DNA from: Eledone cirrhosa
Taxonomy: Eukaryota
Assembly (NCBI GenBank): GCA_964016885.1
Contig: OZ024751.1
Location: 13,330,001 to 13,394,000, forward strand
Reading direction: 5' to 3'
DNA length: 64,000 bases
Position 1 is the stretch's first letter. Every line of letters begins with the position of its first letter. The notes beneath the pieces were generated by a model that was not told the origin of the DNA, did no database searches, and saw nothing but the letters and a program-made list of their open reading frames with translations. Made by a program: the position numbers and the translations under genes. Below, piece after piece: positions 6,061 through 62,725 of this stretch.

Positions 6061-6338
6061 ATGTAGAGGTTATATTTAATTTGTTGGGATACAACAAGCT
6101 AAAATATTTTTATAACTGATATAAAGCACTCAACAAATTATTGGAGTAAATATACAATATATTAACAAATGGAAACTGTATTTATAAAACCATATTTATT
6201 TCATTATACATATTTCAAGGGCCACCAAGGCAGATTATGGTGCGCTTTCATCAGATAAAATATAATACAGATTAGTTTTATAAATAAATATTGACATACC
6301 CTGAGAAAATGCAACCTTAACGGTTGGAGCTTCCTGGA
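6061..6338 (-). mobile_element. HHR element family A, copy 1, between (TA)n tracts
   Basis: Minus-strand HHR core at 6213-6254 (CTGATGA aagcgcacca..tggtggccctt GAAA); homologous to four other loci. Confidence 0.8.
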
Positions 6339-6350
6339 TATATATATATA

Positions 6351-6790
6351 AGTAGAAGTTGTATTTAATTTGTTGGAAGTCCGACAAACAGAAATGTTTA
6401 TAACTGATTAAGAGCACTCAACAGTTTAGTGGAGTAAATATACAATGATATTAAATGAATGGAAACAATATTTATAAAACCATATTTATTTTATTATATA
6501 TATTTCAAGGGAAACCAAGACAATATTGGTACGCTTTCATCAGATAAAATACAAAGTTTGTTTTATAAATAGAGACGTACCCATGAAAATCATACCTTAT
6601 CGGTTCACTACCCAGTGAATTTCCAACCGATAAGGTATGATTTCCATGGGTACGTCTCTATTTATAAAACAAACTTTGTATTTTATCTGATGAAAGCGCA
6701 CCAATGTGGTCTTGGTTGCCCTTGAAATATATATACTAAAATAAATATGGTTTTATAAATATAGTTTCCATTCATTTAATTTCATTGTGT
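6351..6790. mobile_element. HHR element family A, fold-back copy (arms about 6440-6605 and 6625-6790)
   Basis: About 165-bp inverted arms with 19-bp spacer; HHR cores at 6503-6543 (-) and 6687-6727 (+); (TA)n on both sides. Confidence 0.85.
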
Positions 6791-6844
6791 ATATATATAT
6801 ATATATATATATATATATATATATATATATATATATATATATAT

Positions 6845-7092
6845 GCAAAAGTTCTATTTAAATTGTTGGGATACAACAAGCAAATATTTTTATAACTGAT
6901 ATAGACTATCCCTGATGTCTTCCAAAAGTAACGGTTGCATTTTGAAAGGGTATGTCAATATTTATTTATAAAACTGGTATATATTGTATTTTGTCTGATG
7001 AAAGCATACCATAATTTAACATGGTATCCTTGAAATATGTATAATAAAATAGATATGGTTTTATAAATATAGTTTCCATTTGATAATATCGT
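6845..7092. mobile_element. HHR element family A: inverted 3' terminus (6845-6903) joined to forward HHR segment (6905-7092)
   Basis: HHR CTGATGA 6995, GAAA 7032, stem II core atacca/tggtat; (TA)n on both sides. Confidence 0.8.
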
Positions 7093-7406
7093 ATATATAT
7101 ATATATATATATATATATATTCATCTATCTAGCCATCTCTGTATCTCTCTCGTAACCCTTTGAAACTGCCCCTGGTTCTGTTACACAAAGCTATGTTTTA
7201 TAGCGTTTATATTCATGAAAAAAACCTTGGCATCATAATTTCATTAAAAAAAAGCTTTGTTAAATTATGTTGCCAAACACCAGCTCAATACTGAAACTTA
7301 TATTGCTGTCTCTCCCCTTCCCCCTTTCTGTCATTGCTTAACACTCCTAGCCCCCTCCCCCATTTAAACACAAACAATATATACAGAACATGATTACATA
7401 TATATA

Positions 7407-58744: not shown

Positions 58745-59158
58745 GAGTAAGGCGTGTTTGTGGAAGACCAACAGTCACCCAGGCACGCCTCTTCACACCA
58801 CCGATATTCTCCAAGAGATGGCCGATATAACTTGGCACCAATGATATCACAACTCATATATACAGCTGAGTGAACTGGAGCAGCATGAAATAATTGTTTC
58901 TACTTTTGGCACAAGGCCAGCAATTACCCAGTGTATTACTGGTACTTTATTTTATCGACCTCGTAAGGATGAAAGGCAAAGTTAACCTCGGCGGGATTTG
59001 AACTCAGAATGGCAAGGGCAGTAACTCTATGCGTCAAAGCATGGCGTCCGACCCTCTACCGATACTGCCAATCCATATCTTTCTCAAGGACACAATGCAT
59101 CACTCGGTCTGAGAATAGAACTCACAACCTCACAATCTAACCAATAAGCCACGCGCGC
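58745..59158 (-). mobile_element. S3 SINE interrupted by an S1 SINE (58892-59075, -)
   Basis: cagctgagtgaactggagcagcatgaaat continues after the insertion as tctttctcaaggacacaa...taagccacgcgc. Confidence 0.7.
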
Positions 59159-60439
59159 TTTCACATACATAAAAAATAACATATATATAATATAAAACGA
59201 AAAATCAGTGATGCATCTGAACTAAATTTATTGTGTGTTACAATTGTTTCGCCGGCGGACAGCTCGAGACACGATCATTGTGTGGATCTGTCTGATTCTG
59301 GATCCGCAGGTTCGACGGACACGTATAATGATTTCGGAGCAAATTCTCTCACTGGGGCTTGTTTGTGTATATCTTCGGTTTGCTTTTATCCTTCTATGTT
59401 TTTTACTTGTCCCCCTCGCCTTACGTGGTCCCAATAACTTTGTTTAGTTATTGCTCGCACCAACCTGAGGTATCTGATTTTTAATGCGATGAAATAAAAT
59501 GAGGGCTGGAAAATCACTGACGAAGGACTATTTTTATCATATGTAACCCATGTGCAAACCACGCAGTATTCTTCTTTCTTCTCATGTTTTTAATATATAT
59601 ATATATATATATATATATATATATATATATATATATATATATATATATATATATATATATATATATATATATAGATAGATATATATATACATTTATATAC
59701 GCGTTTAGTGTAACGAAATTGAATGTCGTTCAATAGTTAGATTCGAACCTTTACATACCGCTTGAGTAAACTTTACCTGTCAAGTACCAGTCATATTTTA
59801 GGTCAATTAAATCAACTCTACATTACCCCACATCCCCTCAAACAGAATTGTCGCCTTGTGTCTATATCTAAAATCAATATATCAGAGTTATTGATCGGTT
59901 CTGTGTGCGTGTGTGCGTGTGCGTGTGTGTTTGCGCGTGTGCGTGTGTGTGTTTAAGGGCCAAGTGTGGTGGAATTTGTAGAATGCAACAGAACCACATC
60001 AAGATCTTCAGCAACTCAATTGGTACCAACAAAGTTATCACCTACTACCACCATCATCACCAACGTCAGCACCGCTATCAGCACCACCATCATCATCACC
60101 ATCATCAGCATCAGTATCACCATCAACACCAGCATCATCATCACCACAAACTACCATCATCATCACCATCACCACAACTATCACCAACACAATCACCGCC
60201 ATCACTACCTACCACCGTCAACACCGACCGCCAACACCACCACTACCACCATCATCACAACCACCATCACAACTATTATCACCACAACCATCAACCCCAC
60301 CGTCACAACAACTATCGCCAACACCATAACCGCCACCACTACCTTCCACCATCACGCCATCACCACCACCTACAACCACTATCACCACCACCATCACCAC
60401 TACCTACCATCACGCCATCCACACCAACTACCACCACCA

Positions 60440-61110
60440 TTACCACCACCATCACCACTACCAACCATTACGCCATCACCACCAACTACCACCATTAACA
60501 CCGACACTATCACCACCACCATCACCACTACCAACCATTACGCCATCACCACCAATAACACCGACACTATCACCACCACCATCACCACTACCAACCATTA
60601 CGCCATCACCACCATTAACACCGACACTATCACCACCACCATCACCACTACCAACCATTATGCCATCACCACCATTAACACCGACACTATCACCACCACC
60701 ATCACCACTACCAACCATTACGCCATCACCACAATTAACACCGACACTATCACCACCACCATCACCACTACCAACCATTATGCCATCACCACCATTAACA
60801 CCGACACTATCACCACCACCATCACCACTACCAACCATTACGCCATCACCACCAATAACACCGACACTATCACCACCACCATCACCACTACCAACCATTA
60901 CGCCATCACCACCATTAACACCGACACTATCACCACCACCATCACCACTACCAACCATTACGCCATCACCACCATTAACACCGACACTATCACCACCACC
61001 ATCACCACTACCAACCATTACGCCATCACCACCATTAACACCGACACTATCACCACCACCATCACCACTACCAACCATTACGCCATCACCACCACCATCA
61101 CCACTACCAA
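60440..61110. repeat. 60-bp minisatellite, about 11 near-identical units
   Basis: Lines 60541-61080 are nearly identical. Confidence 0.97.
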
Positions 61111-61519
61111 CCATCACACCATCACCACCAACCACCACCATTAACACCGACCACCATCACCACCACCTACCACCGACCACTATCACCACTACCATCACCA
61201 CCATCACCACTACCAACCACTACGCCATCACCACCACTACCTACCACCGCCAATACCGACCACCACCACCACCACCACCATCATCATCACCACTACCAAC
61301 CTTCACCACCGTCAATACCGACCACTATCACCATCACCATGCCACCACCACCACTACGATCAAGTCATCAACATCACCTACCAACCGTTATCGATGTCAA
61401 TGGGAAAAAACAACATCTATATATATATATATATATATATATATATGTATATATATATATATATATATATATATATATATATATATGTATATATATATAT
61501 ATATATATATATATATATG

Positions 61520-62725
61520 TAGGAGGTAAGTTGTATTGTCGTACAATAAAGCAATGCAGATATCGGATAAGAAGCACTCTACAGTTTGTAGGACTGGAGT
61601 ATACATAATATATAAGATCAAAAGATGGTTAAAAGAGTTCCATGTATTTTATTATGCGCATTTTAAAAACAAATATCATCATGTAATAACATTTGTGTTT
61701 TCATCAGATAAAATAGGAGGACATGATATGAAGGATAAAAAACAGTTGTGGATAGTGCAGTTTTAAATCAACATATGAAAAGTAGTTTTAGATGTGATAT
61801 TGGGGAAAAAAATGTTTGAGGGGGGGGGGTGAAAAAGAGGAGGAGATGAGAGTAAAAAGTGGAGGGGGAGGAGTATAATGAAGAAGGATGAGATTACAGG
61901 AGAGATGGGTGATAGAGAGAGAGAGATAGCTTTTATAACCGAGAAAAATATATTGTTTTACATAGAGAGGTTGAAAAACCGTTGGAAGATCATGTATAAA
62001 TTAAAAGAATTTGAAAATTAACGAAGAGAAAAATAATGTAAAGTTAAGGTTTGTATATTGAAGGGTTTAATAATATGTGCGATGAAAAGAAATTGTTAAT
62101 ATGTATTAAGAATAATATTTAAGGGTTTAATAATATGTGCGATGGAAAGAAAATGTTGATATGTATTATTAAAAATAGCAAAGGTAATGTAAGTAAGGAT
62201 ATATTGTGAAAAAAGTAGATAGGATGAAACATGAAAGTGAGAAAAAAATAATGAATTGAGGATGAATAATCTAACGTCAAAAAAATGTTTATGTTTACGA
62301 AGGATTTTTTCAAGGTGATATAAAGTAAGAATATATTGTATTGTGTAATAATTGTTTCTATGTTAGGCACAGTGAGAAAAGGTACAGATTAGGGGTTAGA
62401 AATTAAAAGAAAAAGAAAAGAAAAGAAAAGAAAAGGAAAGGAAAAGGAAGAAATGGAAGTGATAAATAGGAGTGATATAGAATGAGTAACAAGTATTATA
62501 TAATGTATAATAAATAACTTTGAAATAAGGTAGAAAGATGGGTATATTTTTAAAGAAGTATATATATATATATATGTGCCTTTGAGAAAAGGATTCTGAA
62601 TTGATAAAGTTTAGGATATTAGCTGTATACTTTATGGAATGTTCTGTGGAATTTATGCAAGCAGAGAGAAAACAAGTCAGTGATAAAATACATGGAACTC
62701 TTTTAACCATCTTTTGATCTTATAT
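61520..62725 (-). mobile_element. HHR element family D: 1.16-kb minus arm plus about 43-bp inverted arm (62683-62725)
   Basis: Minus: tattttat CTGATGA aaacacaaat..atttgttttt AAAA tgcgca TA ataaaata (61645-61715; GAAA mutated); (TA)n on both sides. Confidence 0.8.

What the first reader, a model, noticed from the sequence alone, without database searches (positions are those of the whole stretch)
6061..62725. Unrelated hammerhead-ribozyme retroelement families share a hidden 3' ACTC...GAGT stem that marks where the short arm ends
Seen: families A, B, C, D, F, G, H and I show no obvious overall alignment, yet the sense strand of each carries an ACTC(C)...TG(T/A)GAGT-like complementary pair downstream of the HHR and about 45-75 nt before the 3' end. 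Examples: A actc 26021/gttgagtgct; G actcc 35586/gtagagtgct; I actc 56510/ttgagtac; H actcc 47761/gtggagaac (variant); reverse complements in B near 12071-12094, C 30354-30413, F 19871-19953, D 61576-61600. In every fold-back copy the short arm stops just upstream of ACTC: A about 2-6 nt (three copies), B 5 nt (three copies), C 5, F 4, H 5, D 7, I about 12, each at a TA/TAT microhomology with the (TA)n target. Established: Penelope-like elements carry type I HHRs in their pseudo-LTRs, can have inverted 5' pLTRs, and have a 3' tail absent from one pLTR. Inference: the tail is a conserved RNA stem-loop that positions a second, internal priming event on (TA)n. I do not know of such a cross-family cis element being described, but cannot check the literature.
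Basis: partly seen in the sequence, partly recalled or inferred. Interest (0 to 1): 0.88.

Follow-up and report, generated by a model that had tools for sequence, protein, structure and literature searches.

The report
Twin hairpins mark Penelope priming sites
A small bulged hairpin sequence, usually present twice in a row in one clade of Penelope-like jumping genes (in this genome, in marine metagenomes and in published coral and sea-cucumber elements), lies a few bases beyond both places where inserted copies end, and is likely the RNA signal that tells the element's reverse transcriptase where to start copying.

Summary
All eight families carry a bulged stem, RCTC-(upper stem)-TN-GAGY, at the stated coordinates. 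In genome samples, 245 of 251 non-full (TA)n-flanked ends fall just before it (TA sites alone predict 26%), and 249 of 282 head-to-head pairs join one short and one full end. The families are not unrelated: A, B and F run into Hydra-clade Penelope ORFs. New here: where the tail reads through into the master element, a second copy of the stem starts 5-9 nt after the full end, so both ends sit before a stem. The same twin stems, 55-83 nt apart, occur in Hydra elements from marine metagenomes (44 of 61 5' regions; 30 twin pairs), with compensatory pairing only in the 2-nt-bulge register and a TA peak 6-8 nt upstream. Naiad and Neptune-like tails lack it. Most likely each stem docks the reverse transcriptase and sets one priming site for one end of a (TA)n break. 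Tails, inverted arms and internal initiation are published; nine literature searches did not find this signal. Binding, strand and RNA folding are untested.

The parts
25833..26104 (+). Family A copy: minimal type I hammerhead (core 25919-25959), stem 1 at 26021-26040, tail to (TA)n
6062..6340 (-). Family A full-tail copy, stem 1 at 6128-6147
6352..6790 (.). Family A fold-back: tail arm (-) 6352-6571 with stem 6416-6435; short arm (+) from about 6659 to (TA)n at 6790
6844..7094 (.). Family A fold-back without overlap: tail-only arm (-) 6844-6903, short arm (+) 6919-7094
10321..10567 (.). Family A: short arm (-) 10321-10466 with inverted tail-only arm (+) about 10497-10567
12022..12210 (.). Family B fold-back: tail arm (-) 12022-12154, stem 12071-12094; short arm (+) 12154-12210
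13695..13885 (.). Family B fold-back: tail arm (-) 13695-13823, stem 13744-13767; short arm (+) from 13828
19819..20434 (.). Family F fold-back (3' end of an autonomous Hydra family): tail arm (-) 19819-20221, stem 19871-19953; short arm (+) 20222-20434
30028..30244 (.). Family B fold-back: tail arm (-) 30028-30169, stem 30077-30100; short arm (+) 30181-30244
30278..30724 (.). Family C fold-back: tail arm (-) 30278-30533, stem 30354-30413; short arm (+) 30541-30724, which reaches further 5' than the tail arm
35466..35673 (+). Family G solo copy: hammerhead, stem 35586-35610, tail
47438..47895 (.). Family H fold-back: short arm (-) 47438-47636; tail arm (+) 47678-47895, stem 47761-47824
56372..56572 (.). 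Family I fold-back: short arm (-) 56372-56440; tail arm (+) 56439-56572, stem 56510-56528
61518..62736 (.). Family D: tail arm (-) 61518-61772, stem 61576-61600; short arm (+) 62683-62736

Best explanation
These are 3' ends and derivatives of Hydra-clade Penelope-like retrotransposons whose two insertion ends each lie 5-9 bases before one of two tandem bulged stems, and each stem likely binds the element's reverse transcriptase on the RNA and sets one priming site. Layout shown: hammerhead, 25-65 nt, site P1, stem 1, 40-85 nt, site P2, stem 2, then the ORF in autonomous tandem copies. Inferred: the GIY-YIG endonuclease breaks a (TA)n tract; one DNA end anneals by a 2-4 nt TA match at P1 and the other at P2; both cDNAs run 5'-ward and join head to head, giving a short arm and a tail arm. 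The tail is simply the stretch between the two sites. Stem 2 is never copied to the 3' end, so only read-through or tandem copies would be complete masters. Two enzyme molecules on one RNA are inferred from the strict short-plus-full pairing.
For: Ends: 245 of 251 non-full TA-flanked ends within -15..+2 of stem 1 versus 31 of 120 TA sites; new families found without or after the motif behave alike. Pairing: 249 of 282 pairs are full+short, 6 full+full, 3 short+short; 22 of 27 in the 800-kb sample. Short arm reaches further 5' in 48 pairs, tail arm in 27, of 224 (120 within 10 nt, 29 undecided); in 11 the tail arm starts at or after stem 1. Stem 2 follows the full end in read-through copies of A, B, C, F, the F-like autonomous family (40 of 42) and four further families. 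Other organisms: stem in 44 of 61 5' regions (antisense 2, shuffles 0.9) and 25 of 48 post-hammerhead regions; 30 twin pairs 55-83 nt apart; of 30 divergence points 8 lie before stem 1, 6 before stem 2; TA peak at -6 to -8 in 90 stems. Covariation without demanding pairing: 158 versus 74.7 +/- 6.9 in 75 motifs and 40 versus 23.4 +/- 3.3 in 16 own-genome clusters, only at the 2-nt-bulge register; on a 29-element RT tree the first upper pair of stem 1 changes 5 times, always on both sides. PMC11167929: a Poseidon PLE cuts and extends both strands and starts at two internal RNA sites that define the tail.
Against: No binding, probing or priming data. Single-sequence folding is weak: tail z-scores -1.6 to +0.1, and the lower stem has probability under 0.45 in 4 of 8 families; twin stems can cross-pair. 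The G-U versus A-C strand test is inconclusive (6 vs 2 and 2 vs 0). Three of the four lower-stem pairs never vary, so they give no covariation; upper pairs 2-3 are loosely kept (stem 2 pair 2 pairs in 17 of 29). Stem 2 was not seen for D, G (no read-through copy), H (0 of 1) or I (0 of 7). 10 of 30 metagenome divergence points lie elsewhere and 6 at contig ends. Most arms overlap, which on one RNA needs strand displacement; this is not explained. 43 short ends had no partner found.
Confidence: 0.7

Rival explanations
1. The stems act on DNA: they are endonuclease recognition or cut sites in single-stranded cDNA or an extruded intermediate, and the two ends are resolution points, not priming sites.
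For: PMC8557442 section 15 ascribes tails and inversions to endonuclease cleavage; PMC11167929 cites that the D. virilis tail is needed for endonuclease recognition. The CTC/GAG core is invariant and the strand test is inconclusive.
Against: Pairing across 7 to about 110 nt of variable spacer with a fixed bulge cannot be read in duplex DNA. A conserved TA at -6 to -8 that merges into the target (TA)n fits primer annealing. In vitro, PAc tail ends are RT start sites (PMC11167929).
Confidence: 0.12
2. One priming only: cDNA starts at the full end, folds back on itself, and second-strand synthesis stalls at stem 1 in the cDNA, which yields the short arm.
For: Explains the full+short asymmetry and the many near-palindromic centres (202 of 249 pairs without a resolvable spacer); self-priming was proposed in PMC3846280.
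Against: The short arm reaches further 5' than the tail arm in 48 of 75 decided pairs, and 11 pairs do not overlap at all; a stricter spacer test gives 7 versus 9. It does not explain stem 2 before the full end.
Confidence: 0.08
3. The stems serve translation, transcription or hammerhead folding, or act on an antisense template, and the ends are set by something linked to them.
For: Stem 2 lies about 40-60 nt before the ORF start. Several Hydra hammerheads have ACTC-n-GAGT as stem III. An antisense template was suggested in PMC3846280.
Against: The stems are kept in non-coding families and tandem units, and both ends keep a fixed distance to a stem whatever the loop length.
Confidence: 0.08
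4. Chance or AT-content effect.
For: The genome is AT- and microsatellite-rich; loose patterns match often (236 raw hits in 800 kb versus 175-211 in shuffles).
Against: With the (TA)n context the excess is about six-fold; ends ignore 89 of 120 available TA sites; the motif recurs at fixed places in unrelated hosts.
Confidence: 0.01

Closest known systems
Hydra clade of C-terminal EN+ Penelope-like elements (Craig et al. 2021, PMC8557442)
   Same: RW[KR], DK[TA], CxCx5C linker, C-terminal GIY-YIG with CxxC and CxH, hammerhead in the pseudo-LTR, (TA)n target, inverted 5'-truncated copies, one-sided tail. Published consensi Hydra-2_Amil, Hydra-2_Ajap and Hydra-1_Ajap contain the stem (read by eye).
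   Different: The paper (passages, sections 11 and 15, four of 59 supplement parts) describes no such stem and ascribes the tail to endonuclease resolution. Tails here are 60-170 nt, not 30-40; the F-like unit is 6.65 kb, not under 3 kb.
PAc, Poseidon element of Anolis (Frangieh et al. 2024, PMC11167929)
   Same: Both strands cut and extended; internal RT initiation at two sites that bound the tail; uncleaved RNA is the template; dimer predicted.
   Different: Other clade; initiation is placed in one AC-rich stem-loop inside the ORF; no repeated motif and no cross-family signal reported; I saw no GCTC...GAGC stem in its printed template (by eye; figures not visible).
L1 twin priming (recalled; PMC2837659 seen only in a search listing)
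   Same: Two target ends prime one RNA and give an inversion.
   Different: In L1 the second site varies and arms do not overlap (recalled); here both sites are fixed by a structure and most arms overlap.
Non-LTR retrozymes (PMC7229834; bioRxiv 10.64898/2026.07.22.740005)
   Same: Short non-coding type I hammerhead repeats derived from PLEs; tandem units occur here (L363, L198).
   Different: Copies here are mostly dispersed fold-backs; rolling-circle RNA was not tested; the passages read give no downstream stem.
Telomerase RNA template-boundary and RT-binding stems (recalled)
   Same: A structured RNA element fixes the copied region for a related RT; TERTs are the top fold matches of the Hydra model.
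   Different: Those limit where copying stops or anchor one template; here two stems mark where copying would start. Analogy only.

Membership tests
Hydra-clade PLE | Single ORF, RT followed by C-terminal GIY-YIG endonuclease | tested here: met
   813-aa and 721-aa ORFs with YRDD and YIG.T. Pfam gave no hit for five Hydra fragments, so this rests on motifs and homologues.
Hydra-clade PLE | RWK-type N-terminal motif and DKT in place of DKG | tested here: met
   RWR in both ORFs; DKT in the F-like ORF, DKA in the B ORF
Hydra-clade PLE | CxCx5C linker; CxxC and CxH in the endonuclease | tested here: met
Hydra-clade PLE | Type I hammerhead in the pseudo-LTR | tested here: inconclusive
   CUGAnGA and GAAA in 7 of 8 family consensi; B core is non-canonical; Rfam listed no hammerhead among the 150 of 286 matches shown; cleavage untested
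Hydra-clade PLE | Insertion into (TA)n | tested here: met
Hydra-clade PLE | Length generally under 3 kb | tested here: not met
   F-like tandem unit 6.65 kb, B element about 3.6 kb; a soft feature in the source
Hydra-clade PLE | RT groups with reference Hydra elements in a PLE phylogeny | not tested
   No reference set of other clades was aligned; one search holds only homologues
Hydra-clade PLE | Each window family is linked to a Hydra ORF | tested here: inconclusive
   A (L008), B (L340), F (L125-L148, L140) linked; G by alignment to A; C reads into non-coding DNA; D, H, I not linked
Naiad or Neptune-like PLE | Tail of these clades carries the same stem | tested here: not met
   24 Naiad 3' ends show 45-60 nt tails without it; the one Neptune-like tail family lacks the GAGT closure
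Non-LTR retrozyme | Tandem non-coding hammerhead units | tested here: inconclusive
   Seen for two minor families, not for the eight window families
Non-LTR retrozyme | Circular RNA intermediate | not testable with these tools
   No RNA run listed

The most novel reading that the evidence does not exclude
Hydra-clade PLEs integrate by a programmed twin-priming mechanism: two tandem copies of a bulged RNA stem load two reverse transcriptases on one template and prime both ends of a (TA)n break at fixed sites. This portable cis signal of about 20 nt would explain the PLE tail, the head-to-head inversions and the need for tandem masters.
Probability: 0.55. Interest if true: 0.88.

Novelty: new variant of a known kind. 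Interest (0 to 1): 0.76.

Why it matters
How Penelope-like elements, the sister group of telomerase, choose where to start copying and why they leave one-sided tails and inversions is an open question (PMC8557442 section 15). A short motif that covaries, recurs twice per element, and sits at a fixed distance from both ends gives a direct experiment and a way to classify non-coding repeats: about 2 x 10^5 copies in this 3-Gb genome by extrapolation from 800 kb. If it works as inferred, it is a minimal handle for loading an RNA into a compact RT-endonuclease.

Tried and rejected
Rfam: only AT-rich miRNA-like noise among the matches shown. Pfam recognised only the Neptune-like endonuclease, 1 of 8 proteins. 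No solved PLE by sequence or among the fold matches listed. Viral contigs: 0 of 55 candidates. Expression: no RNA holder listed; no reads were laid. Single-sequence folding and the G-U strand test did not discriminate. Bulges of 0, 1, 3, 4 nt give no excess pairing, though single families with 1- or 3-nt bulges exist. Counts on alignments A1 and A3 are circular because rows were chosen by pairing or fitted to the model; they were used only for pair types. In one search, clusters 14 and 34 were set aside because their upstream part is another repeat, and clusters 0 and 8 were anchored on the wrong ACTC. Only about 2 Mb of the genome was read, 800 kb of it unbiased; Neptune-like 3' ends rest on six hits. 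Pyatkov 2004 (PMC522041) is not held. Figures S1-S2 and the GenBank file of PMC11167929, 55 of 59 supplement parts of PMC8557442, bioRxiv supplements, Repbase and Dfam entries were not seen and might mention the stem.
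Full report
Observation. The window lies in a 3.0-Gb genome rich in (TA)n. Read side by side, the motif is RCTC, an upper stem, a loop of any length, the upper stem's partner, a 2-nt bulge starting with T, then GAGY and usually NC. 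It is far above chance when followed by (TA)n: 10 versus 0.84 in the window and 67 versus 11.6 in 800 kb of evenly spaced samples. Other bulge letters or sizes gave 5-12 hits, and 31 for no bulge, against 73.

End mapping. I fetched the 30 best loci per family and 80 evenly spaced 10-kb stretches. 3' ends are bimodal in every family. Of 251 (TA)n-flanked ends that are not full ends, 245 lie within -15..+2 of the stem, where only 31 of 120 TA dinucleotides are (this probe covers 70 nt upstream, and the longer probes add only a few ends further up). Head-to-head pairs are 249 full+short, 6 full+full, 3 short+short and 24 other, of 282; without search-anchor copies 112 of 139; in the 800-kb sample 22 of 27. 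The short arm reaches further 5' in 48 and the tail arm in 27 of 224 pairs, and 11 tail arms begin at or after the stem. Simple fold-back of one cDNA cannot make these. A scan blind to the motif found 14 of 31 asymmetric fold-backs in the 800 kb with the stem in the first 22 nt of the tail; the rest include Naiad, Neptune-like, degenerate and simple-repeat cases. Further families with several copies also have short ends just before the stem.

What the elements are. ORFs in the samples led to intact elements of about 830 codons, some in 6.65-kb tandem arrays. They carry the Hydra signatures of PMC8557442 section 11. Family F is the 3' end of such elements, B of a 721-aa Hydra ORF, and A reads into a Hydra ORF in L008; G aligns with A. 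C reads into non-coding DNA, and D, H, I could not be linked. Naiad copies in the same genome also have short and long ends, but no such stem. A model of a homologue is confident (pLDDT 90) and closest to telomerase RTs.

The second stem. Where a tail is not followed by (TA)n but runs on into the master element, a second stem starts 5-9 nt after the usual full end: A 1 of 3 non-TA continuations, B 1 of 6, C 4 of 5, F 1 of 2, the F-like autonomous family 40 of 42, and four minor families partly read by eye; most other continuations are other repeats, by eye. D and G had no read-through copy; H (0 of 1) and I (0 of 7) showed none. One locus holds a full end and a short end of the same autonomous family.

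Other organisms. 2029 homologues were found and 89 loci fetched from metagenome and MAG contigs; hosts are unknown. The stem is in 44 of 61 5' regions (antisense 2, shuffles 0.9) and 25 of 48 regions after the hammerhead; several of the misses end in (TA)n just before it. Thirty twin pairs are 55-83 nt apart; of 30 divergence points 8 fall before stem 1, 6 before stem 2, 10 elsewhere and 6 at contig ends. A covariance model built on 23 own-genome stems finds them too and finds stem 2 of C and A, which it was not trained on, at low scores. TA peaks at -6 to -8 in 90 stems, matching the junctions here. By eye, the published Hydra-2_Amil, Hydra-2_Ajap and Hydra-1_Ajap carry the stem, the last twice before its ATG; Hydra-1_Crog, Hydra-1_Amil and Hydra-1_Obim only in part.

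Covariation. With sites picked by sequence only, upper-stem pairing exceeds permutations only at the 2-nt-bulge register: 40 versus 23.4 +/- 3.3 (16 clusters; 80 versus 53.9 for all 43) in this genome, 158 versus 74.7 +/- 6.9 in 75 metagenome motifs. On a tree of 29 elements (of 89 loci; those with a long ORF and distinct twin stems; median 49% identity) the first upper pair of stem 1 is T-A in 16 and C-G in 13, with 5 changes, all double. The basal pair is A-T or G-C. Against: CTC/GAG never varies, pairs 2-3 are loose, predicted stability is low and the strand test is open.

Mechanism. Shown: two stems, two ends, fixed distances, TA microhomology, one short and one full end per insertion, either arm longer. 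Inferred: each stem binds the RT on the sense RNA; the two ends of a (TA)n break prime at P1 and P2; the cDNAs join head to head; stem 2 is lost, so only read-through copies are full masters. This fits the in vitro behaviour of PAc (PMC11167929). How overlapping arms arise on one RNA is unresolved.

Literature. Seen: PMC11167929, parts 1-3 of 4 (all main text and methods) and the text of two supplements; PMC8557442, passages, sections 11 and 15, supplement parts 1, 2, 52, 53; bioRxiv 10.64898/2026.07.22.740005, parts 1-2 of 5; PMC4209133, parts 1-2 of 4; passages of PMC3846280, PMC7229834, PMC2377424. Tails, inverted arms, (TA)n targeting and two-site internal initiation are known. Nine searches showed no description of this stem; subscription journals and repeat databases are not covered. 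Two unchecked notes of this scan on the same genome reach the same reading; I saw them after my own tests and do not count them as support.

Verdict. Real; known elements with an apparently undescribed, clade-wide twin cis signal. Interest 0.76; mechanism 0.7.

Noticed in passing
PMC8557442 File S2: Stem III of several Hydra hammerheads is itself ACTC-n-GAGT, the same letters as the lower stem; the window families have other stem III sequences. A shared origin or alternative pairing is possible.
   Followed up: no
L372-L395, about 240-600 nt after the ORF: A young Naiad family with a CUGAnGA...GAAA core and three preferred ends (short, +45, +60 nt), without the Hydra stem.
   Followed up: partly
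L245 3' end; L300:2806-3141: Neptune-like family with a 67-nt tail holding ACTC followed by a 4-bp hairpin but no GAGT closure; many intact 775-aa copies.
   Followed up: partly
L340:7900-8140 and window B copies: Family B fold-backs turn at nearly one place inside the hammerhead's stem II loop, and the autonomous B core is non-canonical; the centre may mark an RNA 5' end.
   Followed up: no
L331-L336: Head-to-tail arrays of 6.65-kb units with intact 830-codon Hydra frames and a long microsatellite-rich 3' region.
   Followed up: partly
tails of A, D, F, G, H, I: A further family-specific hairpin lies between stem 1 and the full end (folds); no shared sequence seen.
   Followed up: no
L363:3236-3760, L198, L260: Short non-coding tandem units (about 430 nt in L363) with both stems, resembling retrozymes.
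   Followed up: partly
L474-L484: Hydra PLEs in contigs of bacterial MAGs, most likely animal DNA binned with them.
   Followed up: no
window 1692-2199, 15608-15770, 25390-25740, 57019-57233, 58890-59075, 63520-63910: An abundant SINE-like family, often inverted and ending in TA; ARAGORN found no tRNA.
   Followed up: no
window 2600-4850, 23200-24570, 37950-41310, 44195-46360, 48770-55300, 60040-61390: Long CAC/CCA-rich tandem arrays.
   Followed up: no
L243:4270-4440: A Naiad tail runs straight into the stem-bearing tail of another family, probably a nested insertion at the Naiad end.
   Followed up: partly
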